Positions 24,674-63,404 of a DNA stretch of 64,000 nt are shown here, piece by piece. The position numbers and the translations under genes are program-made. Source of the stretch: an uncultured Bacilli bacterium (lineage in GTDB: Bacteria > Bacillota_I > Bacilli_A > RF39 > UBA660); contig CAKOJJ010000002.1 in assembly GCA_934089275.1 (NCBI GenBank), positions 10,732 to 74,731 on the forward strand, written 5' to 3'. The first letter of the stretch is position 1. The number at the start of each line of letters is the position of its first letter. Below the pieces are notes generated by a model. The model saw only the letters and a program-made list of their open reading frames with translations, was not told where the DNA came from and made no database searches.

Positions 24674-25573
24674 ATGACTTGTTCAAAATGTGGTGCAAAT
24701 AATATTGATGGTTCTAATTTTTGTATTAAGTGTGGTGCAAATCTAAAAGAAATGCCACAAACCATTCAGACTAACAATGCACCTAGTCAAAATTTACAAC
24801 AAATGAACGTACAACAAGAACAACCAATAAATAGTCAACAATTAGAAAATACTCAACAACCAACATATAACCAACCAATTCAACAATCAAATGCTAATAC
24901 AAGTGCTAGCACTTCTCCATTAAACTATTTAATGTATATTATAGCTGTTATGATAAAACCATTTAAAAGTTTTAAAGAAGAAGAAACTAAATTAAATGAT
25001 ACTAAAACATCATTAATTTTAGCACTAATTATGTCAGGTGCAATGACTATTATAAATTTAATAAAAACAATATTTTCAACTGTAAGAGTTGCAAGCTATA
25101 GTTGGACAAGTGGTTACACTTATTCATGGCAATGGGATAATTTAAAAAATATTAAATGGATTGAAGTTATTGGTAAAAACTTCTTAATATATGCCTGTGT
25201 TCTTTTAGCAATTGCATTAATATTCTATTTAGGAAGTTTAATCATAAAGAAACAATTAAGTTTTATAAAATCTTTATCAATTGCTTCTACTTCAGTAATT
25301 CCTGCTATTATATGTGGAATGATTATTTCTCCATTAGCAGGAAAAATATGGAGTCCATTAAGTATTGTATTTATTGCTGTTGGTGGAGTTTATTCATTTA
25401 TTATCCTTTATGAATTAATGAATGAAGAGTTAAAATTAGACGGTGATAAAAAGATTTACTTTAATCTAATATGTCTTGGAATATTAACTATTGCTGGATA
25501 TTATGCATTTATGAAATTATTCATGAGTTCATTGACAAGTGAATTAGGTGGACTTTTAGATTTATTTAAATAA
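24674..25573 (+). CDS. zinc-ribbon / Gln-rich linker / Yip1-like polytopic membrane protein
   Basis: N-terminal CSKCG...CIKCG ribbon, a Q-rich low-complexity linker and 5 TM helices. Strong RBS GAAGGAGGA. Confidence 0.6.
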   Translation: MTCSKCGANNIDGSNFCIKCGANLKEMPQTIQTNNAPSQNLQQMNVQQEQPINSQQLENTQQPTYNQPIQQSNANTSASTSPLNYLMYIIAVMIKPFKSFKEEETKLNDTKTSLILALIMSGAMTIINLIKTIFSTVRVASYSWTSGYTYSWQWDNLKNIKWIEVIGKNFLIYACVLLAIALIFYLGSLIIKKQLSFIKSLSIASTSVIPAIICGMIISPLAGKIWSPLSIVFIAVGGVYSFIILYELMNEELKLDGDKKIYFNLICLGILTIAGYYAFMKLFMSSLTSELGGLLDLFK

Positions 25574-25680
25574 TATATTTTAGTTGTATACATTATACTG
25601 ATTTAAAACTAATCTATATAGAATAAAAAGGCAACTAATATCTTTGTTGCCTTTTATTAATAAAGAAAGGGAGGAAAAAT

Positions 25681-28512
25681 ATGTTTTGTCCAAAATGTGG
25701 TACTAATTTACCAGAAGAATCCGAATTTTGTTCAAACTGTGGAACAAATTTAAAAGATATTCAAACAAATCAAGACAATGTAAATGAACAATATAACAAC
25801 ATTGAACAATCTCCAACTAATAATCAAACTAAAGAAGAAACTACAACAGAAATGATTTCTGAAAAAAGTAAGAAAATTTTTAATCCAATTATAAACAACA
25901 TCAAACTATTTATTTCAAAATATAAAAAACAACTTTTGATAGGTGTTGGAAGTTTAGTAGTAATTATTGCATTAGTTATTACATATAAACAATTATATGG
26001 ATTCGAAAGTTTAAAATGGAACAAGGAATATGAAGATTATAACTTAAAATATATAAGTCAAAGTAACGTTAAACTTGGAATAAAATTTTCTGATGAAAAA
26101 AAACTTGATAAATTAAAAGTTAAAACAACTTGTGGTGAAAGTGAAATAACTGGTTCTGAATTAAATTGGAATTTAACTGAAGCATTAGGAGAATGCAAAG
26201 TAGATATAAGCTACAAACTAAAGAAAATAAGTAAAAAATTTACTATTATAAATCCTTTTGCTGATAAACAAGAATTATCATTGAATTATGAAATAGATAA
26301 TGATTCGGATGAAGATTTAGATTTAGATGGTTTAACTAACAAGCAAGAAAAAGAATATGGAACTGATCCTCAATTGTCCGATTCTGATATGGATGGATTA
26401 GATGATTATTACGAAATTTTTACAAGTAAAACTGATCCATTAAAAGCCGATACCGATGGTGATGGACTAAGTGATTTTGATGAAATAGAATTAGGTCTTG
26501 ATCCATTAAAAGCCGATTCTAAAGGTGATGGTATAAAAGACGGTAATAGAAAAGTTTCTTACTCTGTTAAGAACGAAAAAAATGGTATTACTTTAGAAAT
26601 ATCTGGAACAGGCAACATTGCTAGTTCCACGATCGATACTTCTAAGAATTCAACATTTAAAGAAATGAGTGGATTATTAGATACTGTGTACAATTTTTAT
26701 ACTTCAGGAAAAATAGAAACAGCAACAGTAACTATACCTTATTCACTAGAAGACTTAACAACTCAAAAATTAAATGAAGATAATCTTACGCTTTACTATT
26801 TTAATGAAAAAACAAAAGAATTAGAAGCTATGCCAACAACTGTTGATAAAGAGAATAAAAAAGTTACAGTTACATTAAAACATTTTTCAAAATATGTTTT
26901 AGGAGATAGCAATGTAGTTTTAACTAAATCAAATAATCAAATAATGATGGTTATAGATAATTCCGTTTCAATGTATACTTACTCACAACTTACATCTTTA
27001 GGTTATACAAAAATAACAGGAGCAGACGGCAACGATAGTAATTTTAAACGATTATCATTAACAAACAATTTAATTGATATGTTTACAGGAAATTATAATT
27101 TCGGAATAAGTGAATTTGCCGGTAATTATATTAATAAACAAAAGTTTACTGATAATAAAGAGTCAGCAAAAAAAGCTGTTAATGCAATAAAAAATGATAT
27201 TGAAAAAATTGGAAATGGAACAAATATTGTAAATGCTCTTACAAACGGTATTAACGAATTTAAAAAAGATGAAAATAACCACTACTTAATATTATTAACT
27301 GATGGAAAAGATACATCTACATATAATACTTTATCTTCAAATAAAACATCAATCATTAACAAAGCTAAAGCTAAAGATGTAAAAATTTGTGTAATCGGTT
27401 TAGGAACAAAAATAGATACTGACGATCTTAACACTATTGCAGAAGGTACTGGATGTGATTATTATAACGCAAGTGATGCTGAAGCTTTAGACGAAATATA
27501 TTCGATTATAGGAGCAGATATAAATTATAATTTAGTAGATGTAGATGGTGACGGAAATGTAGATGGAACAGTAATTGCTGACAGTGGTTTTATAGTAACT
27601 AAAAACGGATTCTCTTTTCCTAATTATGGAACTAATTTATCAAGTGGTGGACATTGCTATGGAATGGCTACTATAGCAGAACTTTACTACACAAAGAAAT
27701 TACCATTAAGCTTTAATACTAAAACAGTAAAAGATCAAACATCATATGCATATGATTTAAATAAAACATATTTTGCTAATTACAGTAATTTATATGATTA
27801 TAAATTAAAAACTAGTGTTTTAAAAAATACATTTGGATTTAATACTTTTGGAGAAGAAAAACCAAAAGATTATATGACTTTATCTGGCAACACTCTAGTT
27901 TATAGTGAAAAATTCAAAGAAGAATTAAACAACTCTGAAATGTATGATATCTCAGTAAGCAAATCTGCATTAGATTCAAAAAGTCAACTAGAAAAATGGG
28001 GAGTTAATTACAAAGAAGCAGAAAATGCTTTATTAAACGAAGATAAAATGCAAACAAGTAATATGATAGAAAACTCTGATAAACAAATAATAAATGCTAT
28101 TTATGCAGGTTTTATAAAACAAGATGCAACGGATCATTATTCTTCATCTTCAAACTTCCTTATATGGGCAAGAAACGTTTTTGGATCTGAATCATCGAAA
28201 AAACTAAACTCAGCAGCATTTATTGAATTATTAAGAGATAGACTAGATAGTGGAGATGTACCTGTAATATTTGGATCATTTAGTGGAGGTCTTCATGCAA
28301 TAAATGCAATTAGCCTTGTTCAAGATAATACTGATTCTAATCATTATTACATTGGTGTTTATGATAATAATTATCCAGGTGAAAAAAGATATGTTGACGT
28401 TCAATGTAATAAGAAAACATGTGTAACAAAAGCAAATAATTATTACACAAAATCTAAAGAACCAATACGTATTACTATGTCATTAGATGAAGATTTAAAA
28501 TATTTTAAATAA
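25681..28512 (+). CDS. large surface protein: zinc ribbon, TM helix, thrombospondin-type-3-like Ca-binding repeats, vWA domain, C-terminal putative cysteine-peptidase-like domain
   Basis: CPKCG..CSNCG ribbon; TM helix at about residues 85-105; DxDxDGxxDxxE repeats (DSDMDGLDDYYE, DTDGDGLSDFDE); vWA MIDAS motif MMVIDNSVSM; DVDGDGNVDG; then GGHCYGMA ... GGLHAINAI. Confidence 0.6.
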   Translation: MFCPKCGTNLPEESEFCSNCGTNLKDIQTNQDNVNEQYNNIEQSPTNNQTKEETTTEMISEKSKKIFNPIINNIKLFISKYKKQLLIGVGSLVVIIALVITYKQLYGFESLKWNKEYEDYNLKYISQSNVKLGIKFSDEKKLDKLKVKTTCGESEITGSELNWNLTEALGECKVDISYKLKKISKKFTIINPFADKQELSLNYEIDNDSDEDLDLDGLTNKQEKEYGTDPQLSDSDMDGLDDYYEIFTSKTDPLKADTDGDGLSDFDEIELGLDPLKADSKGDGIKDGNRKVSYSVKNEKNGITLEISGTGNIASSTIDTSKNSTFKEMSGLLDTVYNFYTSGKIETATVTIPYSLEDLTTQKLNEDNLTLYYFNEKTKELEAMPTTVDKENKKVTVTLKHFSKYVLGDSNVVLTKSNNQIMMVIDNSVSMYTYSQLTSLGYTKITGADGNDSNFKRLSLTNNLIDMFTGNYNFGISEFAGNYINKQKFTDNKESAKKAVNAIKNDIEKIGNGTNIVNALTNGINEFKKDENNHYLILLTDGKDTSTYNTLSSNKTSIINKAKAKDVKICVIGLGTKIDTDDLNTIAEGTGCDYYNASDAEALDEIYSIIGADINYNLVDVDGDGNVDGTVIADSGFIVTKNGFSFPNYGTNLSSGGHCYGMATIAELYYTKKLPLSFNTKTVKDQTSYAYDLNKTYFANYSNLYDYKLKTSVLKNTFGFNTFGEEKPKDYMTLSGNTLVYSEKFKEELNNSEMYDISVSKSALDSKSQLEKWGVNYKEAENALLNEDKMQTSNMIENSDKQIINAIYAGFIKQDATDHYSSSSNFLIWARNVFGSESSKKLNSAAFIELLRDRLDSGDVPVIFGSFSGGLHAINAISLVQDNTDSNHYYIGVYDNNYPGEKRYVDVQCNKKTCVTKANNYYTKSKEPIRITMSLDEDLKYFK

Positions 28513-30559: not shown

Positions 30560-32353
30560 TTATGCTATCTGCATTTTCCAATTATTAATAACTTCTTTGG
30601 TTTTTTCACTCCAAATTTTAAAATCTTTAGAATTAAAAGCCACTTTATGTATTTCAACTAATAATTCAACCAGATTACCTATTTTTATATTATGATTATA
30701 AATAAATTTAATTATATCCTGATATTGAACAATAGTTAATGGAACTACTGGAACAGGTTTTCCAACCCAGCTTTCTCTATTTAAAACAAAGAATTGCCAA
30801 TTCGTTCTAATATTTATAGATGTTGATATAAACAAGCCTAACACATCTTTTTCTTGATAAGCATCAATAAAACTTAAAACATGATCTATTACACTTGATG
30901 CTTCATGTTCCCATTGTCTGACTCCTGTCATCAATGATACTTCTGGTAAAACAACATAATTTTCATAATACAATTCCATATCTGGTGTGTTTCCTACACC
31001 TGGTGCAAAACTTTTTGGTGTTAAGTCCTCTTCCACATTAAAGTTTCTTTTGACCTTCTTTTCCCCGTCAATTGCTAATAAAGATTTCCAAGTGTTTACT
31101 TCTAACCATAGGGCACTCATATCTTCATTTCCTAATATATCTTCATATTTATCCAAAATTTCATTTCTTGCCTTTGTAGTTTTAGCAATAAATTCGATAT
31201 ATTTTTTTTCATTCAATCCTGTTATATAATCAACAGTTTCTTTTTCTATAATTTTTATTGCAGTATCATCATTATTAGCAACTGTACTCAATTTTTTCTT
31301 TAAGGTTGCAACTTGAGTATCTATATTCTCTTTTATTGAAACGTTATAATTATCTTTGATGTTTTCTACAAGAGGAATATTATTTAAGTATTCAATTTTA
31401 TCTACAACAAGTTTTCTTCTTTCAATTGGATTATCCCAAGGTAATGTTGTTGCATTAGGATTTCCATACCACTCCATATATTCATCAATTGAAGAAAACT
31501 GAGTTGTTTTAAATTCATAAGTGTTAAGTAATAAATCAACTTTCGATTTTGAATAATCATTTACTCTTACCTTTGTAGCATAACTTCTTCCTGATAAATT
31601 AAATAAGCCTGTATATACAAGACTTCTACAAAAAGCTTCTGCATAATCATAATATGAACCTATTTGATTATCAATGCTACCATATGCATCAATAAATGTT
31701 TTCTCACATATACTTTTAACCATTCCAGTATCATTTTTGTTTGAAAGAGCATTATATCTTTCCCTAAATAATGATATTGCCTTGTACATTTTTTCCATTT
31801 GACATCTTTTAGTACATCCAAACAAAAATACTATCTCACTTCTATTTAAAAAACCAAATTTATTTATGGCTTTTAATAATAACTCCATTGGAAATATTCC
31901 ATCATTTTCATCTAAATCTGATTTTGTTGAAACTTTATTAGGAAAGTATAACTTTAACAATTGTTTTAAAAAATCTTCTGCATCAAATGTATCATTTAAA
32001 ATCAAATTCCCTACTTTAGTATTGTGAATTATTCCTCTATCATCAACATAACCAAAGCCAAAAAATTCAAATGATATCTTATCGTTTCTACCATTGCTTT
32101 CAGTTTCTTTTACATCATAATTTCCTGTTACATATTGACTATAATTTAACGAACTTAAAAAAGTATCTTCTTCACGATGAGCATTATATATGTATTCTCT
32201 TCTAATAGGCATCACTTTTCTTTTTGTAAATTTACTTTCGTGATCTTCATCTTTTTCGTTCCAGTTCTTGCCATCTAGTTTACCAAATTCTTTATACCAT
32301 TGTACTGTTTTGATTATACTTCTTGGCTTTGTTCTCCACCACCAACTTGCCAT
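30560..32353 (-). CDS. type IIS restriction endonuclease, AlwI family-like (AlwI/MlyI/PleI/N.BstNBI group)
   Basis: The C-terminal catalytic region GNTPDMELYYENYVVLPEVSLMTG...EASSVIDH and CRSLVYTGLF resemble, from memory, N.BstNBI GNQPDMEIIYEDFIVLGEVTTSKG and RYFRYTGLF. It lies immediately downstream of a DNA MTase. Confidence 0.55.
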   Translation of the reverse strand: MASWWWRTKPRSIIKTVQWYKEFGKLDGKNWNEKDEDHESKFTKRKVMPIRREYIYNAHREEDTFLSSLNYSQYVTGNYDVKETESNGRNDKISFEFFGFGYVDDRGIIHNTKVGNLILNDTFDAEDFLKQLLKLYFPNKVSTKSDLDENDGIFPMELLLKAINKFGFLNRSEIVFLFGCTKRCQMEKMYKAISLFRERYNALSNKNDTGMVKSICEKTFIDAYGSIDNQIGSYYDYAEAFCRSLVYTGLFNLSGRSYATKVRVNDYSKSKVDLLLNTYEFKTTQFSSIDEYMEWYGNPNATTLPWDNPIERRKLVVDKIEYLNNIPLVENIKDNYNVSIKENIDTQVATLKKKLSTVANNDDTAIKIIEKETVDYITGLNEKKYIEFIAKTTKARNEILDKYEDILGNEDMSALWLEVNTWKSLLAIDGEKKVKRNFNVEEDLTPKSFAPGVGNTPDMELYYENYVVLPEVSLMTGVRQWEHEASSVIDHVLSFIDAYQEKDVLGLFISTSINIRTNWQFFVLNRESWVGKPVPVVPLTIVQYQDIIKFIYNHNIKIGNLVELLVEIHKVAFNSKDFKIWSEKTKEVINNWKMQIA

Positions 32354-32364
32354 ATTTTCATCTC

Positions 32365-33507
32365 CTAAAATTCATAATTTGTTATTATTAAGTGTTCAAC
32401 TTTTTTATCATTTCTATTTTTTATACTTACTAAATATTTCTTGTCAAATGATTTAATGTAAAATCCATTTTTATTATATAGATCATATATAAAATCTGTA
32501 TTTTTAATTATAAGCATAAATTTAGCCTTAGTATGATTTAAGTAATTTGCTAATCTAATTTGATCCTGCTTTCCAAATTCATTATTAGCATATGTTGAAA
32601 ATTCAGTATCATATGGTGGATCTAAAAACATAAAATCATTTTCATTTAAATCTATTTTTTCGCAAAATTCTTCGAAGTCTAAATTATATATTTGAGTATT
32701 TCGTAAATAATTACGGAGTTCATCTGAATTTAAATGTTTAATTTTTTTGCCAAAGTCTTTTCTATTATAACTGATTCCCCCATAAGGAACATTAAATTTT
32801 CCACTTGCATTATATCTAAACATTGATGCATAACAATATTCTCTTATAAAATAGAATATTGCACAATAAAATTCATTATCTATACCTAATTCTTTTCTGT
32901 TATTATACAAATATCTAAAATGCATATAATACGCACTTTTTAGAGCACACTCAATATTTTCTAACACATTATCATCTTTCATTTTTTCTCTTTTTGCTTC
33001 TATTTTTTGCATTCTTTCAATTTTTGATGATAAATTTCTTTTAACCTCATTAATAAAATTGTCTATGTTAATATTAAAATGTTCAGTTAATAACCCATTA
33101 AATTCCTTTGAATGCTCAAAAACAAACTCATATATTTTATCTTTTAAATTTGTTGATAATTTTTTTCTATTTTCTTCAATTTGACAGTCTTTCGAATATG
33201 ATAAATATATATTTAGTAATTCGTTACTGTTATTTTGAACTATTTTTTCTAATAGTTTCCAGTTTTTATTTATTTCATTTAATTTATTAATAAATTTCTT
33301 ATTTCCTGCCTTTATTAAATTATACAATAATATGAGTTCATCTGATTTATCATTTATAATTGAGTTTTTACAATTAACATTAAGATATACGGAACCTCCA
33401 CCAACAAATGGCTCTATATATCTATCATAACTTTCGGGCATATTTTCTAAAATTATAGGTAATTCCTTTTCTTTACCACCTGCCCATTTTATAAATGATT
33501 TTTCCAT
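32365..33507 (-). CDS. Dam-family (D12 class) N6-adenine DNA methyltransferase with a large internal insertion
   Basis: FIKWAGGKEKE, EPFVGGGSV (SAM motif) and FLDPPY (catalytic). 380 aa, versus the roughly 270-290 aa I recall for typical Dam. Confidence 0.85.
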   Translation of the reverse strand: MEKSFIKWAGGKEKELPIILENMPESYDRYIEPFVGGGSVYLNVNCKNSIINDKSDELILLYNLIKAGNKKFINKLNEINKNWKLLEKIVQNNSNELLNIYLSYSKDCQIEENRKKLSTNLKDKIYEFVFEHSKEFNGLLTEHFNINIDNFINEVKRNLSSKIERMQKIEAKREKMKDDNVLENIECALKSAYYMHFRYLYNNRKELGIDNEFYCAIFYFIREYCYASMFRYNASGKFNVPYGGISYNRKDFGKKIKHLNSDELRNYLRNTQIYNLDFEEFCEKIDLNENDFMFLDPPYDTEFSTYANNEFGKQDQIRLANYLNHTKAKFMLIIKNTDFIYDLYNKNGFYIKSFDKKYLVSIKNRNDKKVEHLIITNYEF

Positions 33508-34767: not shown

Positions 34768-34787
34768 TGCTAGGCTATTTTTTATTT
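34750..34787. terminator. bidirectional terminator (end of lysis module / end of 34453 gene)
   Basis: AGCCCAGCA-loop-TGCTAGGCT (one mismatch), followed by ATTTTTTATTTT. Confidence 0.5.
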
Positions 34788-35777
34788 TATAGTAAGTTTT
34801 TGTCCTGGATATATAAGGTTTGGATTTGCTATTCCATTATCATTTGCTATCTTCTGATATGTAGTTCCATACTTCTTGGCAATAGCAGACAATGTATCTC
34901 CTTTTTTTACTATGTAGGTTTGATAATTTTGTGTATTAGATGTTCCACTTATTTTAATAACTTGTCCTACATAAATCAAGTTAGGATTAGAAATATTATT
35001 TATCCTTGCCAACTCTTGATATGTTGTGCCATATCTATTTGCTATGCCACTTAATGTATCTCCTGCTACTATAGTATATGTAGTTTCGGATATTTGTGGA
35101 GTGGATGGTTGACTTGGTTCTGATGGTGATTCAGCATTATTATTCTTCTCATACCCATTTAATCCTGTATTTTTTATTATTGTAGGGTAATCCTTATAAG
35201 CATAGTCTGTATCAATTCTCATACCACTAATACTTCCATTTGATGAATTTTGCCACATACCATATTCTCCATAATTAAAATTAGGTTTAGAATTAGACCA
35301 TACTGCCAACCATTTATCATATCTTGATAAACTAGCTGTATCAATGTAATTATTAAAATAGTTACTATTAGCATAAATGCTTACATAGTAACCTTTATTT
35401 TCAAGATATTCGCAAAAACCTTTAATCGCTTCTGCCATTTTACTTTTACCAACTCTTTGATGTCTATCTTCTTCAACATCTATACAAATTGGATATTCAA
35501 ATTGCTTTCCTTTCAAGCAATTTTTATACATATATTCCGCTTCTGCTTTTCCTTTATCATATGTATTTGCACAACTATACCAATATGCTCCAACAGGTAT
35601 CCCTTTAGATTTTGCTTGATTATAAAAATCTTCAAAGCAAGAATCTTTGTTATAACTTACTCCTGTTCCCCATCCAGTAAATCCTGCTCTTAATATTACA
35701 AATTCTGCACTTGCTTTTATATTATCAAAATTAATTCCTTTTTGATATGATGATATATCTATTCCTTTTCTTTCCAT
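34782..35777 (-). CDS. endolysin: GH25 muramidase + two LysM domains
   Basis: [17 protein letters not shown]...VILRAG (GH25), a Pro/Ser linker and two LysM repeats ([34 protein letters not shown]). Start at MERKG behind GGAGGAAAA. Confidence 0.9.
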
Positions 35778-35778
35778 A

Positions 35779-36174
35779 TTATTTTCCTCCATTATCTTTC
35801 TTTAATTGTTCTAATACTTCCATTACTTTTTCTGGTAATGGCAATCCCATAGACCCCCAGTTTTCAAGAATTGAGATTCCTTCGTTTGCTACAAAAAAGT
35901 AGATTACAAGATTTCTAATTGCTCCAGTATCTCCAACTATTTGATCCAATTGAACTGATACAGCAACTATAATCAAGTAACCTACTTTCTTTATTATTCC
36001 CTTTGCACCAATCTTACTATTTATCTTCTTATTGGCTATTGCATCACAGACACCTGTTAAATAATCAAGTGCAATGATTATTAGCAATGTTTTCAATGCC
36101 ATATCCCAACCTCCTAAAAAATAAAGCACAGTTGTCAGAACTGTACTTGTAAAAAAATTAAAAATATATTTCAT
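35779..36174 (-). CDS. holin (phage_holin_4_1 / toxin-secretion holin type)
   Basis: Three TM segments and the LDYLTGV motif. It lies immediately upstream of the endolysin. Start at MKYIF behind AGGAGGG. Confidence 0.8.
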
Positions 36175-49433: not shown

Positions 49434-51128
49434 CTATTCTATTACCTGTACAAAGAATCCATCATTGTCTAAGAATACATCCTGTTGTAATAAGTAAACT
49501 GCATTTATCAATGCAACTACCATATCAACCTTTCCTTGACTTCTTTTCTTTGTAATGTATCTATTCATATTGGTATCATAGGTACATCTTGCATTTTCAA
49601 AGTTAATTTCTAATAATTTATTTTCTTCATATCTAAACTTTCTATCTAATATCTTTTCATATAATAATTTTGTTGGACTATGTAATGTATCACTATGTTG
49701 TCTAATCTGAATTGTAGTATATTTTCTCTCCCATTTTTGAGCCGATGATAATGCATTATATCTATCATATCCAATAGCCATTATTGTAACTTTATATTTA
49801 TTTTCTATTTGAAATACAAAATCTTCTATAATGGCATAATCTACTGTTTTATTACCACAAGCAATACATTTCATAGTTTTTATAAATTCTCTATAATCTA
49901 TCTTCTCGAACTTATTTTTCTCATCTATTCTTCCTTCTGGAATAAATGCAACAACATCAGCAAGTATTTCATCATCTTCCTCAGATACCATTGCTACTGC
50001 ACAGTTATCGTTTGTCATTGCAAGGTCAACTCCTAGATATACTTTTCTACCAGTCCAATTAATATTTGCTACCTTACAACTCATTACCTCATTTATATCT
50101 ATGTAACTTTCTGTTCCCATTCCCTGATAAATAATATTGCAGTGTTTTGTAAGAAAGTTTTCTCTTACACTTTCTACTGCTATTGCTTTAGCTCTCTTCT
50201 TAATTAAATCTTCCCATATTTCTGGGATTTCAAGAGCAACTGGATTTGAATGCTTTAACACATTATCATCAGTTGTCCATTTGCTTATTAGCTCTTCATC
50301 TGGTTCATATAGCAATGCAAATACTGTTTCGTCTTTTTCTATTCCATCTAATACTCTTTTCGCATATCCGACTTCATCTTCAAATGGATTATTGAATGTT
50401 GGATACTTAGTTGAAATAATACAACCTAACTTATTTAAAATATTTAATTGTCCAGACCTCATTGATTCAATCGCATATGGATTTGGTAATGCTCCTACTT
50501 CATCAGCAAGAAATACATTTGGTAATTTTCCATCCATTCTACTACTTGAATAATTTAGTGGATAATATCTGCTCTCAGTTAGATTAAATTGTATATAATC
50601 CCTTAAGATTTTAAATCTTTTAGTTTCTTTATGAATGTATATTAATGGACTAGATTTTAGCGTTTCTTCTATTGCTGTTTTAACTTCTCTTGATAGTGAA
50701 CCATCTGGAGCAACTGAATAGAACTTTGAGTATTTAGGCTCTAATAAAAACAACAAAATAAATATCGTTGCTATTGTATAAGTTTTAAAATTTTTTCTTG
50801 CTATTTCAAGTATTGCTGTTTCATATCTTCTTTTATCTAGATTATTACGATATACTACACATAAAATTGAAATATAAAATACCCATTGGTATCCACAAGA
50901 ACACTCATAAATTGATTGTCCTGCTTTTAAACCTTTGGGCATTATTAAGATTTTTAAAATTGATTCAATTTGTTTTACTTTCGCCTTGTTTATTAAATAC
51001 TTTGGATTCTTTCCATCTGCTATATCTAGGAACTCTTGGCATTGTTTAATTACATATTTTGGTGCTGGTATTTTATAATTTACAACATCACTAGCATACT
51101 TATACGCTTTATTGTTCAATCTTACCAC
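49434..51128 (-). CDS. terL: terminase large subunit
   Basis: 564 aa with Terminase_1-like organisation, preceded by a P27-type small subunit. Confidence 0.85.
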   Translation of the reverse strand: MVRLNNKAYKYASDVVNYKIPAPKYVIKQCQEFLDIADGKNPKYLINKAKVKQIESILKILIMPKGLKAGQSIYECSCGYQWVFYISILCVVYRNNLDKRRYETAILEIARKNFKTYTIATIFILLFLLEPKYSKFYSVAPDGSLSREVKTAIEETLKSSPLIYIHKETKRFKILRDYIQFNLTESRYYPLNYSSSRMDGKLPNVFLADEVGALPNPYAIESMRSGQLNILNKLGCIISTKYPTFNNPFEDEVGYAKRVLDGIEKDETVFALLYEPDEELISKWTTDDNVLKHSNPVALEIPEIWEDLIKKRAKAIAVESVRENFLTKHCNIIYQGMGTESYIDINEVMSCKVANINWTGRKVYLGVDLAMTNDNCAVAMVSEEDDEILADVVAFIPEGRIDEKNKFEKIDYREFIKTMKCIACGNKTVDYAIIEDFVFQIENKYKVTIMAIGYDRYNALSSAQKWERKYTTIQIRQHSDTLHSPTKLLYEKILDRKFRYEENKLLEINFENARCTYDTNMNRYITKKRSQGKVDMVVALINAVYLLQQDVFLDNDGFFVQVIE

Positions 51129-51471
51129 CTGCTATTATTTGTAGCAGTGGATCATCATCTTCGGTCACATCATCTTTTCTTAATGATATTATAATTTTCA
51201 TTAATGTACTTACTGTCTTATTAGCACTGTCTGTAGTTCTATTGTAATCAGATATTGCTGGATGAGAATAAACATTCTTTCTTCCTTTAACATACTCTTT
51301 AGTTACAAGAGTACCATCCTCTTTGATAGTTTTTTCCAAATCATTCAATATTTGTAATTGAACTTGATATCTTTTAAATGTTGTTAGAAAGAAGAAGTTT
51401 TGTTCTACACCATGTTGTTCTGCAATTCGAAGGATTTCTTGAGCCTGTTCGTTTAATGACATTTTGTTCAT
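51109..51471 (-). CDS. terS: terminase small subunit (P27 family-like)
   Basis: 120 aa, overlapping terL. KGRKNVYSHPAISDYNRTTDSANK pattern. Confidence 0.65.
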   Translation of the reverse strand: MNKMSLNEQAQEILRIAEQHGVEQNFFFLTTFKRYQVQLQILNDLEKTIKEDGTLVTKEYVKGRKNVYSHPAISDYNRTTDSANKTVSTLMKIIISLRKDDVTEDDDPLLQIIAGGKIEQ

Positions 51472-51488
51472 TAAAAATTACCTCCTTC

Positions 51489-52274
51489 TTAATACAAACC
51501 CCATTCTGCAAATTTTTCAAATCCACCCATAAGGCTTATAAATTCTCTTGCTATTTCAACTATTTCTTTGTATGGTCTACCATCCACTATTTCATCTCCA
51601 ATAGCACAACTAATGTTTATCACTTCTCCAGTAAATTGTGCTTTTAAAAATGCATAGATATTCACAGATACATCTGCCTTTGATAAGTCTTTTCCATGTA
51701 GGCCTCCACCTGTTACGCTTTCTGCCATATCACTGCCAAGTTTTCTATTAGTTGCACCTGTGTCTACATTTATACCACCTGTCCAATATCCCAATGGATT
51801 GATTACTGCAGTTGGATATAATCGTTTTAGTTCTTTTTTATGTGCATTACTCTGACATATTATCAAACGACCATTTTCATCTAATATGTATTTACCATCA
51901 CAATGATATTTTTCATAAATATCTCTTGCTATTTCAGAAATTACAACATCACACATTCTTATTGGAACACCTTTAAATATTCCATTATCTCCACATCTTA
52001 TTTTTTTATTTTGATTTTTATATAAGTGTCTATCCTGTTTCACTACTTGCAAATCCAATTTAACCTTTCCTGCAATTCTATTTACTATTCTTGCCACTTC
52101 CTTAAATGAAAATATCTCACTCGTTTCAATTATCACATGACATCTTTCATGTCCTATTAAAACCTCAACTGCTACTTTTGGATTTCTATTTTTCTTATAT
52201 GCCAAATCAACAATAGCTCCAGCAATTCTATCGGCTATTTTATCTGGATGACTTGGATTAACTTTTTCTATCAT
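51489..52274 (-). CDS. miniature S-adenosylmethionine synthetase (MetK)-like protein
   Basis: 261 aa, aligning by eye to MetK motifs. [16 protein letters not shown] matches GHPDKIADQISDAVLD. CGDNG matches [27 protein letters not shown] matches [37 protein letters not shown] matches GGGAFSGKDPSKVDRS. Confidence 0.65.
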   Translation of the reverse strand: [261 protein letters not shown]

Positions 52275-53577
52275 TGTTTTCCTCCTTCAATAAATTTTCT
52301 AATATTCCTTGTAATACATTTACTACAATACTATTTCCTGCTTGCTTATATAATTGAGCATTTGAATTAACTTTACTTGATTTCTCATAATCACTATCAT
52401 CAAATCCCATAAGCCTCCAACACTCTTTGGGAGTTAACTTTCTTATTCTTAATTGGTTTTTATGTTTAGTAGTTACTCCTAAACAATCGCATCTTGTATC
52501 TAAAGTTGGACTTAAATTATTATTTTCACTATTTTGAGTATAAAAATTGTTCATCCTACTTGTAGAATAACTATGTCTAATAACATCCATTTCTTTAACT
52601 TTATTTTCATCAATTAGTTTCTCACATAATTGCTTTTTTAGGCTCTTTTCAACTACTCCTATGTCTGGAGAAGTTTTTAGGGTTGGTATCATTTCTTTTT
52701 GAACTGTTCCCCTTTTTTTATCCATATTTGTTATATAGACACCATCTCCATCCGTTGCTTCTAAATATCCTTTTTTAGTAGCATTTTTAATATGTAAGCA
52801 TTCATTTTGAAGATTTGTTGTTTCTTCTAATTTATCACTATAAGTAATCATCCCACTATGTTCTTCCCCTGCCCCACGAGCAGTTAATGTAGGAACGATA
52901 CTATTATTCCCTTGCACTTTTTCAAATGGCTTTTGATATGACTTCCAATGTGATATTCTATCTATCTTTTCTTCTGTTAGATAATATTTTTCATCTACAT
53001 TTTTTTCTAGCATATCCTTAAGTTTCTTTTTCAATATTTGTGGCTTTGGAAAACTAAAAGAGTCTTTACCAATATCATTTCTAATCGATACTGTAAAAAC
53101 TCTTTCTCTATTTTGTGGTATCCCATAATCTTTAGCATTTAAAACTTTATAATAGCTTGTATATCCTAAATCTTCTAATGCCTGAATATAAGCATTAAAA
53201 TTGTGAATATGTTTCTTACTTAATATATTTTTTACATTTTCCCATATTACATACTTAGGCTTTACTTTTTTTACTATTCTTATTGTTTCATACATAAGAC
53301 TACTTCTCGTGCCACTATTTCTATCTCCACCTGCTTGCTTTCCTGCAAGTGAAAAATCTTGACAAGGACTACCATGCATTATTAAATCTACATCTATATC
53401 TTTATCCCACATTGTTATATCTTGGGGTATATAGTTTGTATCATGTAATGCATTAAAACTTGCTACTGCATACTTGTCTATTTCAACATAATCTGACAAT
53501 TTATAATTAATATGAAGATTTTCAAGTGCTTTACTACAAGCACCTATTCCACCAAACAATTCTAATATTTTAATCAT
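52258..53577 (-). CDS. DNA (cytosine-5)-methyltransferase
   Basis: Motifs ELFGGIGA (I), GSPCQDFS (IV), WENVKN (VI), QNRERVF (VIII), AGNSIVV (X), with a long variable region. Confidence 0.9.
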   Translation of the reverse strand: MIKILELFGGIGACSKALENLHINYKLSDYVEIDKYAVASFNALHDTNYIPQDITMWDKDIDVDLIMHGSPCQDFSLAGKQAGGDRNSGTRSSLMYETIRIVKKVKPKYVIWENVKNILSKKHIHNFNAYIQALEDLGYTSYYKVLNAKDYGIPQNRERVFTVSIRNDIGKDSFSFPKPQILKKKLKDMLEKNVDEKYYLTEEKIDRISHWKSYQKPFEKVQGNNSIVPTLTARGAGEEHSGMITYSDKLEETTNLQNECLHIKNATKKGYLEATDGDGVYITNMDKKRGTVQKEMIPTLKTSPDIGVVEKSLKKQLCEKLIDENKVKEMDVIRHSYSTSRMNNFYTQNSENNNLSPTLDTRCDCLGVTTKHKNQLRIRKLTPKECWRLMGFDDSDYEKSSKVNSNAQLYKQAGNSIVVNVLQGILENLLKEENNDRKS

Positions 53578-54898
53578 CTTCTGGGATTTCTATTCCTTCC
53601 ACTATCTTAACAGCTGTTTTTCCTGTTAGAGTTTCCCATCTATCTATGATTACATCAACATATTTAGGATCAAGTTCTATTGAATAACAATTTCTTCCTA
53701 AATGTTCACAACTAATAAGAGTTGACCCAGAGCCTCCAAAAAAGTCAATTACATTCTCTCCTGGTTTGCTACTGTTTCTTACTAATCTTGATATTAATTT
53801 AATTGGTTTCATCGTTGGATGAACATCATTTTTTAATGGTTTATCTTCATGAATTATTGTTGTTGGTGTTTTATCTTCTATTATTTCTTTTATCATATCT
53901 TTTAATTCTTCTTTAGATAGTTTATCTAAATCAGCTTTATCTTCAAACACTGTTGTTTGAGTCCTATCATTTATAAAATAATGACCAGCTCCTTCTTTCC
54001 AGCCATATAAACAAGGTTCGTGCTTCCATTGATAATCTTGTCTACCAAGCACAAGAGCATTTTTTACCCATATTAGATTTTGCTTTACTTGACCTCCTGC
54101 ATCCATTAATGCTTTTCTAAAGTTATATCCCTCTGTATCTGCATGGAATATATAATATGCTCCTCCTGGTTTTAAAACTCTCATCATCTCAGTATAAAAA
54201 GCATTAAGAAATAAATAAAATGATTCATCATCCATGTTATCATTTAATATTTTATTTCCATTATCTCTTTCTTTTCCATAACCACTTTCATTTATTGAAC
54301 CATAATTAACATTGTATGGTGGATCTGTTACACATAAATCCATAACTGCTCCATCTAATAGTTTATCTATATCATTCTGACTTGTACTATCTCCACACAT
54401 TATTCTGTGGTTTCCAAGTTGATAGATATCTCCATATTTTGCCTTTGGTATTTCTGGTAGTTTTTCTTCTACATCATAATCATCTTCTTCAAACTCTATG
54501 TCTGTTTGATTAAAATCAAAATCTTCAAGTTCAAATCCAGTAAGTGACACATCAAAATCTAAATCAGCCAGTGCTTTTATTTCCTGTCTTAATATTTCAT
54601 CATCCCAACCTGCATCAAGTGCAAGTTTATTATCTGCTAAAATGTATGCTCTTTTTTGTTCATCTGTTAAATCTTCAACAAATAAACAAGGTACTTCTTC
54701 CATTCCTAACTTTTTAGCACCTAACACTCTACCATGCCCTGCTATTATTCCAAAGTTGCTATCTATTAAAACTGGATTTATAAAACCAAATTCTTTTATG
54801 GATCGAGATATTTTTTCTACTTGTTCTTCACTATGAGTTCGAGCATTATTTTCATATGGCTTTAATTTTTCAATTTTAACATTCTCGTATCTTCTCAT
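53570..54898 (-). CDS. ParB-like N-terminal domain fused to N6/N4 DNA methyltransferase
   Basis: ParB-type KLKPYENNARTHSEEQV...IAGHGR, then the MTase catalytic motif TDPPYN and a C-terminal SAM-binding FFGGSGST. Confidence 0.85.
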   Translation of the reverse strand: MRRYENVKIEKLKPYENNARTHSEEQVEKISRSIKEFGFINPVLIDSNFGIIAGHGRVLGAKKLGMEEVPCLFVEDLTDEQKRAYILADNKLALDAGWDDEILRQEIKALADLDFDVSLTGFELEDFDFNQTDIEFEEDDYDVEEKLPEIPKAKYGDIYQLGNHRIMCGDSTSQNDIDKLLDGAVMDLCVTDPPYNVNYGSINESGYGKERDNGNKILNDNMDDESFYLFLNAFYTEMMRVLKPGGAYYIFHADTEGYNFRKALMDAGGQVKQNLIWVKNALVLGRQDYQWKHEPCLYGWKEGAGHYFINDRTQTTVFEDKADLDKLSKEELKDMIKEIIEDKTPTTIIHEDKPLKNDVHPTMKPIKLISRLVRNSSKPGENVIDFFGGSGSTLISCEHLGRNCYSIELDPKYVDVIIDRWETLTGKTAVKIVEGIEIPEDD

Positions 54899-55013: not shown

Positions 55014-55382
55014 TTATTCTCCGCTTCTTATCAAACTTCTCAATTCTTCTCTACTTATTTGACCTTTCTCTGCCATTTCATGATGCATTCTACACAATGT
55101 TATTAAATTATTACTATCTAATCTCATTGAGTAATCTTCTTCTATTGGTACAATATGATGAACTTCTAACTCCTTATAGGTATATTTATAATTCGTATCA
55201 TATTTACCACTTAGACACACCTTGCATAAATACTTATCTCTCTTTCTTATACTCTTGCTTTTTTCTGTCCACTTATTTGTTTTTCTAAAACTATTAGCTT
55301 TACTCTTTTTCTTTGTGGTTGGTCTTTTACATACTATATTCATATCATGTATTGTTCCGCAGATTGAGCAAGTTTTAAGCAT
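55014..55382 (-). CDS. HNH endonuclease (packaging-associated type)
   Basis: CxxC...EVHHIVPIEED...NLITLCRMHH; 122 aa. Confidence 0.8.
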   Translation of the reverse strand: MLKTCSICGTIHDMNIVCKRPTTKKKSKANSFRKTNKWTEKSKSIRKRDKYLCKVCLSGKYDTNYKYTYKELEVHHIVPIEEDYSMRLDSNNLITLCRMHHEMAEKGQISREELRSLIRSGE

Positions 55383-62762: not shown

Positions 62763-63404
62763 ATGGATATTAATAAATATGTTGCCGATAAAATTAAATA
62801 TTATCGAATCCAGAGAAATTTGTCCCAGGAAGAAGTTGCTGAAGAATTAGAAACTTCTGCAGTAAATATTTCAAGATATGAAAATGGTGATAGAAAAACT
62901 AATCAAGATATATTATTTAAATTAAGCCAACTATTTGGTGTATCTATTAATGATTTTTTCCCACCTGTTGATAATGCAAAATATATTGACCTTATATCTA
63001 ATACTATCAAGATTCCAGTTCTTGGTTTTATAAAAGCAGGTGTTCCTATTGAGGCACAAGAAGATATTATTGATTATGTAGATATTCCTGCAATATGGAC
63101 AAAAGGTGGCAAAGACTTTTATGCCCTAAAAATTTCTGGAGATAGCATGACTCCTAAATATAATGAAGGAGACATTGTTATTTTTGAACAAACAAAAGAC
63201 TATGAAGCAGGACGAAACAAAGATTGTGCTGTTATGGTCAATTGTACTGAATGTACTTTTAAAAAGGTATTTATTGATGAACATGGTATAACATTACAAC
63301 CTTATAACATGAATTACGAACCAATGCGATTCACAAAAGAACAAGCTATGCAACTACCTATTACTGTAGTAGGAATTGCAAAAGAAAAAAGAGTATCTTT
63401 ATAA
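62763..63404 (+). CDS. CI-like repressor: XRE HTH + S24 (LexA-type) autopeptidase domain
   Basis: HTH LSQEEVAEELETSAVNISRYENG. Peptidase motifs ISGDSMTPKY (Ser) and TFKKV (Lys). Confidence 0.88.
   Translation: MDINKYVADKIKYYRIQRNLSQEEVAEELETSAVNISRYENGDRKTNQDILFKLSQLFGVSINDFFPPVDNAKYIDLISNTIKIPVLGFIKAGVPIEAQEDIIDYVDIPAIWTKGGKDFYALKISGDSMTPKYNEGDIVIFEQTKDYEAGRNKDCAVMVNCTECTFKKVFIDEHGITLQPYNMNYEPMRFTKEQAMQLPITVVGIAKEKRVSL

What the first reader, a model, noticed from the sequence alone, without database searches (positions are those of the whole stretch)
51489..52274. Miniature MetK-like SAM synthetase encoded by the prophage
The 261-aa ORF retains, in order, several hallmark MetK motifs: HPDKIADxI, GDxG, the GG...D.G.T.RK loop and GGG..GKD.SK.D. 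I recall bacterial MetK as roughly 380-400 aa, which would make this ORF about one third shorter, with the central domain appearing trimmed. It overlaps the stop of the Dcm gene and sits in an operon with two DNA methyltransferases.

A phage-borne minimal SAM synthetase could boost SAM supply for self-methylation during infection. Alternatively it could act as a decoy or modulator of host MetK. SAM metabolism is an established battleground between phages and R-M/BREX-type defences. I cannot tell from sequence alone whether it is catalytically active.
Basis: partly seen in the sequence, partly recalled or inferred. Interest (0 to 1): 0.65.

Follow-up and report, generated by a model that had tools for sequence, protein, structure and literature searches.

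The report
Miniature phage SAM synthetase beside methylases
A prophage gene encodes a 261-residue, stripped-down but apparently complete version of the enzyme that makes the methyl donor SAM, most likely to feed the phage's two DNA methylases; this gene family is common in gut and streptococcal phages and is already in the literature, so the find is ordinary except that the bacterial host seems to have no SAM synthetase of its own.

Summary
The ORF is on the minus strand (51489-52274) and encodes a 261-aa MetK homologue. Its start overlaps the end of the Dcm gene by 17 nt, and it lies in the run HNH, ParB-N6/N4 methylase, Dcm, mini-MetK, small ORF, TerL.

It is not a MetK with one domain removed. 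About 13 small deletions are spread over all three domains (19, 48 and 56 residues lost). The AlphaFold model (pLDDT 95.7) keeps three beta-alpha-beta-beta-alpha-beta repeats and matches only MAT structures (TM 0.74-0.78). All 16 textbook active-site residues are kept, including those supplied in trans across the dimer. dN/dS is 0.10-0.12.

The family (phrog_1569) is very large: at least 8,000 clusters at 90% identity and at least 337 species genomes. It usually sits next to a ParB-methylase and the terminase.

It is already published:
- Renard 2021: "135-amino-acid truncation", with knock-out phenotypes.
- Kieft 2021: viral metK, conserved motifs, dN/dS below 1, paired with dcm.
- de Jonge 2024: K00789 in 59% of Heliusvirales.

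I found no enzymology.

Best reading: an active minimal SAM synthetase supplying the phage methylases late in infection. The decoy idea is not supported.

Locally unusual: the host genus (0 of 21 genomes) has no metK of either type.

The parts
51489..52274 (-). Mini-MetK: a 261-aa methionine adenosyltransferase homologue (phrog_1569).
   Evidence: - ORF.
- Family hits: Pfam PF00438 7e-11; phrog_1569 1.3e-66; PDB MetK hits.
- Structure: AF2 pLDDT 95.7; Foldseek top 50 all MAT.
- Catalytic map.
- Selection: dN/dS 0.10-0.12.
52281..52285 (-). GGAGG Shine-Dalgarno, 6 nt upstream of the mini-MetK ATG and inside the Dcm coding sequence.
   Evidence: Read directly from the sequence.
52258..53577 (-). 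C5 cytosine DNA methyltransferase (Dcm-type), 439 aa. Its last 17 nt overlap the mini-MetK start.
   Evidence: Pfam DNA_methylase 3.9e-71; phrog_116; PADLOC type II MTase models.
53570..54898 (-). ParB_N-domain / N6-N4 DNA methyltransferase fusion, 442 aa.
   Evidence: - Pfam N6_N4_Mtase 6e-34 plus ParB_N 3.7e-08; phrog_498 1.6e-169.
- A homologue lies within a few kb of the mini-MetK in 53 of 82 related loci.
55014..55382 (-). HNH endonuclease, the first gene of the packaging-proximal run.
   Evidence: Pfam HNH 9e-07; phrog_144.
51109..51471 (-). 120-aa ORF directly after the mini-MetK, probably the small terminase subunit.
   Evidence: - phrog_13845 5.7e-54.
- Weak Terminase_4 match, 0.0036.
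- It sits immediately before TerL, and the same gene order occurs in L010, L097 and L098.
49434..51128 (-). Terminase large subunit.
   Evidence: Pfam TerL_nuclease 2e-35 plus TerL_ATPase 6e-10.

Best explanation
The gene encodes a catalytically active, minimal methionine adenosyltransferase that makes SAM from ATP and methionine.

**What is shown**
- It keeps the three-repeat MAT core and the full set of substrate-, metal- and triphosphate-binding residues. It has shed about 120 residues of loops, helix ends, hairpin tips and the C-terminal tail.
- It is translationally coupled to the phage's two DNA methyltransferases and lies directly before the terminase genes.

**What is inferred**
- It is co-transcribed with them, and it works as a homodimer with the active site at the subunit interface, as in all class-I MATs.
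- It raises the local SAM supply late in infection, so that newly replicated phage DNA is fully methylated before or during packaging. The DNA is then protected against restriction in the next host.
- In this host lineage, which encodes no SAM synthetase, the phage enzyme would be the only intracellular route to SAM.
For: **Fold**
- AF2 model: pLDDT 95.7, pTM 0.93, with three beta-alpha-beta-beta-alpha-beta units.
- The Foldseek top 50 PDB hits are all MAT/MetK, TM normalised to the query 0.66-0.78.

**Active site**
- E. coli H14, D16, K17, E42, E55, Q98, D118, D163, K165, D238, R244, K245, K265, K269 and D271 map to the identical residues H9, D11, K12, E37, E50, Q80, D96, D126, K128, D171, R177, K178, K195, K199 and D201. 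F230 maps to W164.
- Each position is conserved in 29-34 of 34 diverse family members.
- The residues that act across the dimer in MetK (E55, D118, K265) are conserved too.

**Selection**
- dN/dS is 0.10 and 0.12 against relatives at 94% and 83% identity. TerL gives 0.01-0.07 and portal 0.02-0.10 in the same comparisons.
- In the same loci the mini-MetK is 58-73% identical, the ParB-methylase 36-55% and TerL 22-26%.

**Context**
- A ParB-methylase homologue lies within a few kb in 53 of 82 loci.
- The immediately downstream ORF is a ParB_N/N6_N4 methylase in 31-34 of 74 loci and a radical-SAM enzyme in 5.
- The upstream ORF is a small terminase in 20 of 71 loci.
- In the window there is a GGAGG, a 17-nt overlap with Dcm, and no minus-strand terminator from the HNH gene to the start of TerL.

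**Host**
- No bacterial-type or archaeal-type MAT in the assembly or in 21 congeneric species.
- TrmD and at least 10 radical-SAM ORFs are present.

**Literature**
- Kieft 2021 reports conserved viral MetK motifs, dN/dS below 1 and pairing with dcm.
- The Phi1207.3 paper proposes a phage MetK as methyl-donor supplier for a methylase.
Against: - I found no enzymatic assay of any ~260-aa member in the library searched, so activity is inferred.
- It fails the curated metK equivalog cut-off (49.8 against 309.4 bits). The Pfam central and C-terminal domain models do not fire.
- The dimer could not be modelled with the tools at hand.
- Close TerL relatives of this phage in metK-less hosts (G047, G192, G088; 61-77% TerL identity) carry no mini-MetK. 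The gene is therefore dispensable even there.
- About a third of related loci show no methylase homologous to the window's two within the flank. Some look chromosomal rather than phage.
- The only genetic study reported host phenotypes (aggregation, biofilm), not methylation.
Confidence: 0.7

Rival explanations
1. Lysogenic-conversion gene. The enzyme is made in the lysogen and benefits the host by raising cellular SAM. In this metK-less lineage it would convert a SAM importer into a SAM producer. Phage DNA methylation would be secondary.
For: - Deleting the short prophage metK in S. agalactiae 12/111phiA changed aggregation, glycocalyx and biofilm, with partial plasmid complementation.
- The host genus lacks any MAT yet depends on SAM.
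- Within the order, mini-MetK occurs in 17 of 214 genomes without metK and in 1 of 87 with it (Fisher p = 0.03).
Against: - The gene sits inside the late packaging run, with no promoter signal above chance and no terminator of its own. It is translationally coupled to Dcm.
- The enrichment cannot be separated from where such prophages occur: the TerL control gives 17 of 214 against 2 of 87, p = 0.07.
- The family is mostly found in hosts that do have metK, such as Streptococcus, Clostridia and Gardnerella.
- Complementation in the GBS study was incomplete and confounded by secondary mutations.
Confidence: 0.15
2. Non-catalytic or altered-function MetK relative. Examples: a SAM, ATP or methionine binding subunit that docks on the methylases; a tripolyphosphatase only; or a MAT variant valued because it escapes regulators or inhibitors that target full-length MetK.
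For: - About 120 residues are missing, including surface elements that could carry regulatory or tetramer contacts.
- It fails the curated metK cut-off.
- A few divergent members (P0189, P0190, P0255) have lost catalytic residues, so non-catalytic derivatives exist in the family.
Against: - The window protein and about 90% of diverse members keep every catalytic, metal-binding and methionine-binding residue. A mere binding or scaffold protein would not be expected to keep all of them.
- The fold core is intact at very high confidence.
Confidence: 0.1
3. Decoy or modulator of host MetK. The short protein would form mixed oligomers with host MetK to change host SAM synthesis.
For: - MAT active sites are formed across a dimer, so heterodimers are conceivable in principle.
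- Phage T3 SAM lyase is known to act on MetK (PDB 8bb1 appears among the fold hits; T3 preprint listed).
Against: - No MetK gene in this assembly or in any of the 21 congeneric genomes, so there is no target here.
- Full conservation of catalytic residues is not needed for a decoy.
- The consistent genomic partner is a SAM consumer, not a defence or anti-defence gene. PADLOC gives no hit for the mini-MetK.
Confidence: 0.03

Closest known systems
Short prophage MetK of Streptococcus Javan-like prophages (12/111phiA MetK, Renard et al. 2021, PMC8223999); phrog_1569; the KEGG K00789 'auxiliary metabolic gene' of Ca. Heliusvirales (de Jonge et al. 2024, PMC11283538) and of gut viruses (Kieft et al. 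2021)
   Same: - Same family: 64-70% identity to the Javan and Heliusvirales 'NatCom' phage copies and a full-length phrog_1569 match.
- Same ~260-aa length.
- Same placement between small-terminase or packaging genes and DNA methylases.
- The truncation relative to E. coli MetK was already noted in print.
   Different: - Gene order is inverted here. The methylases lie upstream of the mini-MetK, whereas the common order is TerS, MetK, ParB-methylase, Dcm.
- The host is an uncultured, 27% G+C, reduced-genome Bacilli lineage that lacks metK. The published cases are in hosts with their own MetK.
Cellular class-I methionine adenosyltransferase (E. coli MetK, 384 aa, PDB 1FUG/7LL3/7LOO; Ureaplasma MAT 6RK7; human MAT2A)
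   Same: Same three-repeat fold (TM 0.74-0.78 normalised to the query). Identical catalytic, Mg2+/K+, triphosphate and methionine-binding residues.
   Different: - 123 residues shorter, through about 13 dispersed deletions plus loss of the 23-aa C-terminal tail.
- Only about 20% sequence identity.
- Below the TIGR01034 cut-off, and invisible to the Pfam central and C-terminal models.
- Oligomeric state unknown.
Full-length phage MetK, e.g. orf29 of S. pyogenes prophage Phi1207.3 (353 aa, all three Pfam domains; PMC4260502)
   Same: Phage-borne MAT next to an HNH endonuclease, a ParB-domain methylase and a C5 methylase. The authors propose it supplies the methyl donor for the methylase.
   Different: That protein is about 90 residues longer and is recognised by all three Pfam MetK domains. 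The window protein belongs to the shortened lineage.
Phage T3 SAM lyase (gene 0.3 'SAMase')
   Same: A phage protein that manipulates the host SAM pool in the contest with restriction and BREX systems (preprint listed).
   Different: Opposite strategy and an unrelated fold. T3 destroys SAM and inhibits MetK to disarm SAM-dependent defences, whereas this gene is predicted to make SAM to drive self-methylation.

Membership tests
Class-I MAT / MetK (TIGR01034; Pfam PF00438 + PF02772 + PF02773) | Three-domain pseudo-threefold beta-alpha-beta-beta-alpha-beta fold | tested here: met
   The AF2 model (pLDDT 95.7) shows three such units. The Foldseek top 50 PDB hits are all MAT, E down to 5e-19, TMq up to 0.78.
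Class-I MAT / MetK (TIGR01034; Pfam PF00438 + PF02772 + PF02773) | Signature motifs and catalytic residues (HPDK; GxGDxG; GGPxxDxGLTGRK; GGGAFSGKDxSKVDRS; K165; E42/E55/Q98) | tested here: met
   All 16 mapped residues are kept: 15 identical and F230 to W. They are conserved in 29-34 of 34 family members.
Class-I MAT / MetK (TIGR01034; Pfam PF00438 + PF02772 + PF02773) | Score above the curated equivalog cut-off, with all three Pfam domain models detected | tested here: not met
   TIGR01034 gives 49.8 bits against a cut-off of 309.4. Only PF00438 (N domain) fires. It is a divergent offshoot, not an equivalog by NCBI's rule.
Class-I MAT / MetK (TIGR01034; Pfam PF00438 + PF02772 + PF02773) | Homodimer with the active site formed by both subunits | not testable with these tools
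   Only monomer prediction is available. Indirect support: the trans-acting residues E50, D96 and K195 are conserved.
Class-I MAT / MetK (TIGR01034; Pfam PF00438 + PF02772 + PF02773) | Catalyses ATP + L-methionine to SAM + PPi + Pi | not testable with these tools
   I found no assay of a ~260-aa member in the literature searched.
Short phage MetK family (phrog_1569; Renard 2021 'truncated' prophage MetK) | Full-length similarity to the family profile and to phage members | tested here: met
   - phrog_1569 1.3e-66, residues 1-260.
- 24 phage records cover at least 80% of the protein at 63-70% identity.
- At least 8,000 clusters at 90% identity, nearly all 260 aa.
Short phage MetK family (phrog_1569; Renard 2021 'truncated' prophage MetK) | Located in a phage or prophage beside DNA methyltransferase(s) and the terminase genes | tested here: met
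   Window gene order. The same neighbourhood recurs in related loci.

The most novel reading that the evidence does not exclude
The host genus, and roughly 70% of sampled genomes in its order, has lost both known types of SAM synthetase. It still encodes SAM-dependent enzymes, so it must import SAM.

In such cells the prophage's 261-aa enzyme would be the only intracellular SAM source. The phage would carry it because imported SAM cannot sustain a burst of DNA methylation. If it is expressed in the lysogen, it would make the host a SAM prototroph.

The family would also be the smallest natural MAT, a roughly 260-residue catalytic core.
Probability: 0.3. Interest if true: 0.6.

Novelty: new member of a known kind. 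Interest (0 to 1): 0.3.

Why it matters
As a gene find it is ordinary. Phage metK is one of the commonest auxiliary genes in gut viromes, and the truncated form has been noted before. Two things keep some value:

1. **The short form has apparently never been assayed.** A roughly 260-residue MAT that keeps every catalytic residue would define the minimal catalytic core of an essential, drug-targeted and biotechnologically used enzyme family.
2. **The host lineage has no metK.** It offers a natural setting for testing whether phage-made SAM limits phage DNA methylation. It would also show whether prophages can complement a host auxotrophy for a central cofactor.

Tried and rejected
- **Decoy of host MetK.** Rejected: the host genus has no MetK and the catalytic residues are conserved.
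- **One domain deleted.** Rejected: the deletions are dispersed and all three repeats are retained.
- **Archaeal-type MAT in the host as an explanation for the missing metK.** None in 41 genomes.
- **The ~345-aa, ~320-bit MetK class in the order as another phage form.** Rejected: it has three Pfam domains, chromosomal neighbours and a SAM-I riboswitch leader, so it is a host gene.
- **Enrichment of mini-MetK in metK-less genomes as evidence of necessity.** Nominal p = 0.03, but the TerL control shows a similar skew (p = 0.07). Close phage relatives in metK-less hosts lack the gene, so this is not conclusive.
- **Defence-system membership.** PADLOC gives no hit for the mini-MetK.
- **Viral structure library (BFVD).** No significant match, so no viral MAT model to compare with.
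- **Host SAM riboswitch as a pointer to a SAM transporter.** There is one riboswitch, but no recognisable transporter downstream.
- **Literature searches for enzymology of a short phage MAT.** They found none.

Full report
**Observation**

The window holds a 261-aa ORF at 51489-52274, on the minus strand; the plus-strand frame is full of stops. It carries, in order, [28 protein letters not shown] and [13 protein letters not shown].

The similarity to MetK is statistically sound:
- Pfam S-AdoMet_synt_N at 7e-11.
- PDB MetK chains down to 7e-09, with two independent aligned stretches: the HPDK region and the triphosphate loop.
- A full-length match to phrog_1569, 'unknown function', at 1.3e-66.

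The ATG lies 17 nt inside the end of a C5 (Dcm-type) methylase ORF and follows a GGAGG. Dcm itself overlaps a ParB_N/N6-N4 methylase ORF by 8 nt.

The minus-strand gene order is HNH, ParB-methylase, Dcm, mini-MetK, a 120-aa probable small terminase, TerL, portal, protease, capsid. From the HNH gene to the start of TerL there is no minus-strand terminator-like site, and promoter-like sites are no more frequent than in shuffled sequence. The arrangement reads as one late, packaging-proximal unit.

The prophage is bounded on one side by an S24/HTH repressor at 62763-63404. At the other end lies a GH25-LysM lysin at 34782-35792.

**Anatomy**

I aligned 34 diverse family members with E. coli K-12 MetK and five cellular MetKs from the host's class. 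The 123 missing residues are not one domain. There are about 13 deletions of 3-17 residues, costing 19 residues in the N-terminal domain, 48 in the central domain and 56 in the C-terminal domain including the tail.

The AlphaFold2 model built on that alignment is very confident: pLDDT 95.7, pTM 0.93, and no segment below 70. It retains three beta-alpha-beta-beta-alpha-beta units with shorter helices and hairpins. Foldseek against the PDB returns only methionine adenosyltransferases in the top 50, with E down to 5e-19 and TM 0.66-0.78 normalised to the query.

The classical E. coli active-site residues (literature numbering) map as follows.

| E. coli MetK | Window protein |
|---|---|
| H14 | H9 |
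| D16 | D11 |
| K17 | K12 |
| E42 | E37 |
| E55 | E50 |
| Q98 | Q80 |
| D118 | D96 |
| D163 | D126 |
| K165 | K128 |
| F230 | W164 |
| D238 | D171 |
| R244 | R177 |
| K245 | K178 |
| K265 | K195 |
| K269 | K199 |
| D271 | D201 |

Each position is conserved in 29-34 of the 34 sequences. The roles assigned to these residues rest on established MetK structural and mutagenesis work, recalled from memory. The mapping itself is computed.

Residues that MetK contributes across the dimer interface are among those conserved. That is indirect evidence that the dimer is kept.

By NCBI's equivalog rule the protein is not a metK (49.8 against 309.4 bits), and the Pfam central and C-terminal models do not see it.

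**How common it is**

- At least 8,000 clusters at 90% identity, almost all 260 aa, in the large protein collection.
- 1,307 clusters at 50% identity with E up to 1e-3, of which 208 are below 1e-30. Full-length members are mostly 260-300 aa.
- At least 337 species genomes, spanning Bacilli, Clostridia and Gardnerella, plus some Bacteroidales and Spirochaete MAGs.
- 25 deposited phage genomes. These include Streptococcus Javan prophages, Gardnerella phage vB_Gva_AB1 (there annotated as SAM synthetase) and Ca. Heliusvirales gut phages.

**Context in related loci**

- In 53 of 82 loci a homologue of the window's ParB-methylase lies within a few kb. It usually starts about 810 nt after the MetK start, on the same strand.
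- By Pfam, the immediately downstream ORF is a ParB_N/N6_N4 methylase in 31-34 of 74 loci and a radical-SAM enzyme in 5. The upstream ORF is a small terminase in 20 of 71. The consistent partners are therefore SAM consumers and the packaging genes.
- The mini-MetK is much better conserved across these loci (58-73% identity) than the methylase (36-55%) or TerL (22-26%).
- Against the two closest relatives, dN/dS is 0.10 and 0.12. That is purifying selection of the same order as the portal gene.

**What is already known**

- Renard et al. 2021 studied the metK of S. agalactiae prophage 12/111phiA, a relative of the Javan prophages hit here. They state that it differs from E. coli MetK 'by a 135-amino-acid truncation' without affecting the catalytic part. 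Deletion changed aggregation and biofilm phenotypes. No enzymology was done.
- Kieft et al. 2021 list viral metK as a widespread auxiliary gene. They report conserved substrate-binding motifs, dN/dS below 1, clades separate from bacterial MetK, and co-occurrence with dcm.
- de Jonge et al. 2024 find K00789 in 58.9% of Ca. Heliusvirales genomes.
- The Phi1207.3 paper proposes that a (longer) phage MetK supplies the methyl donor for the neighbouring methylase.

Earlier notes of this scan reached the same reading for sister loci. I re-derived the points I use.

**Mechanism**

The best-supported explanation is an active, minimal SAM synthetase, co-expressed with the phage's two DNA methylases just before packaging. 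It would keep SAM from limiting methylation of the replicated phage genomes.

- **Shown:** fold, residue conservation, purifying selection, gene coupling and neighbourhood.
- **Inferred:** catalysis, dimerisation, timing of expression and the effect on methylation.

**What is unusual in this window**

- The window's assembly is 1.25 Mb, 27% G+C and 74% complete. Its only MetK-like sequence is this phage gene.
- None of 21 other species genomes of the same genus, many 91-95% complete, has a bacterial-type metK. No genome among 41 relatives has the archaeal type.
- Across 301 genomes of the order (299 of high quality), 87 have a host metK, 17-18 have only a mini form, one has both, and 196 have nothing.
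- The host metK group includes a roughly 345-aa version that I checked. It has three Pfam domains, chromosomal neighbours and a SAM-I riboswitch leader.
- The host nevertheless encodes TrmD and at least ten radical-SAM proteins and one SAM-I riboswitch. It uses SAM and presumably imports it.

In this lysogen the prophage gene would thus be the only SAM-synthesis capacity. I could not show that this is why the phage carries it:
- The excess of mini-MetK in metK-less genomes is nominal: 17 of 214 against 1 of 87, p = 0.03.
- TerL-related prophages show a similar skew: 17 of 214 against 2 of 87, p = 0.07.
- The three closest TerL relatives in metK-less hosts lack the gene.
- Most family members live in hosts that have metK.

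**Limits**

- No dimer modelling was possible.
- The BFVD fold search gave nothing significant.
- Host taxonomy is only known as an uncultured Bacilli lineage. The closest named relative of the phage module is a goat-colon 'Bacilli bacterium' MAG, with TerL at 90% and orf120 at 98% identity.

**Verdict**

- It is a new member of a known and published phage gene family, and interest is low to moderate.
- The open points worth a bench test are the never-measured activity of the 260-residue core and its role in a host without metK.

Noticed in passing
whole host genome (G000) and relatives; the window is G000:C2:10732-74731: - The host genus lacks any SAM synthetase gene: 0 of 21 congeneric species for TIGR01034 and 0 of 41 relatives for PF01941.
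- About 70% of 301 genomes of the order lack metK.
- TrmD and at least 10 radical-SAM ORFs are present, which implies SAM import or an unknown synthetase.
   Followed up: partly
window 30560-33507 (minus strand): An AlwI-family restriction endonuclease (597 aa) and a D12-class N6-adenine methylase (380 aa) form a type II R-M pair just beyond the prophage lysin (34782-35792). It may be phage cargo at the prophage end or a host system next to the attachment site.
   Followed up: no
G000:C4:64630-64713 (locus L096): The metK-less host's single SAM-I riboswitch (60 bits) is followed by a terminator-like hairpin. Only tiny or unrelated ORFs lie downstream, with no recognisable transporter or methionine gene.
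   Followed up: partly
L091:8251-9291, L092:8513-9538, L093 (genomes G107, G222, G245 of the same order): A shortened (340-346 aa) host MetK scores only about 310-330 bits on TIGR01034. It has all three Pfam domains and a SAM-I riboswitch leader, and is common in this order. It is an independent, milder case of MetK shrinkage in reduced genomes.
   Followed up: partly
related loci L010-L089, ORF directly downstream of the mini-MetK: - In 5 of 74 loci the immediate downstream neighbour is a radical-SAM protein instead of a DNA methylase.
- A few loci have plainly chromosomal neighbours (GMP synthase, HrcA, DnaN), suggesting non-phage branches of the family.
   Followed up: no
family members P0189, P0190, P0255 (alignment A1): Three divergent ~261-267-aa members have substitutions at several catalytic positions (for example H9, D11, E37, D171, R177/K178). 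They may be inactivated or repurposed pseudo-enzymes.
   Followed up: no
window 49434-54898 compared with L097: Synonymous divergence is mosaic between this prophage and its closest relative: TerL dS 0.06, orf120 0.03, mini-MetK 0.25, ParB-methylase 0.55. This points to recombination that exchanges the methylation module separately from the packaging genes. In L097 the Dcm gene is called as two ORFs (85 + 345 aa).
   Followed up: no
window 24674-28512 (plus strand): Two adjacent host ORFs begin with zinc-ribbon domains: a Yip1-domain membrane protein (299 aa) and a 943-aa VWA-domain protein with a TSP3 repeat. They lie outside the prophage.
   Followed up: no
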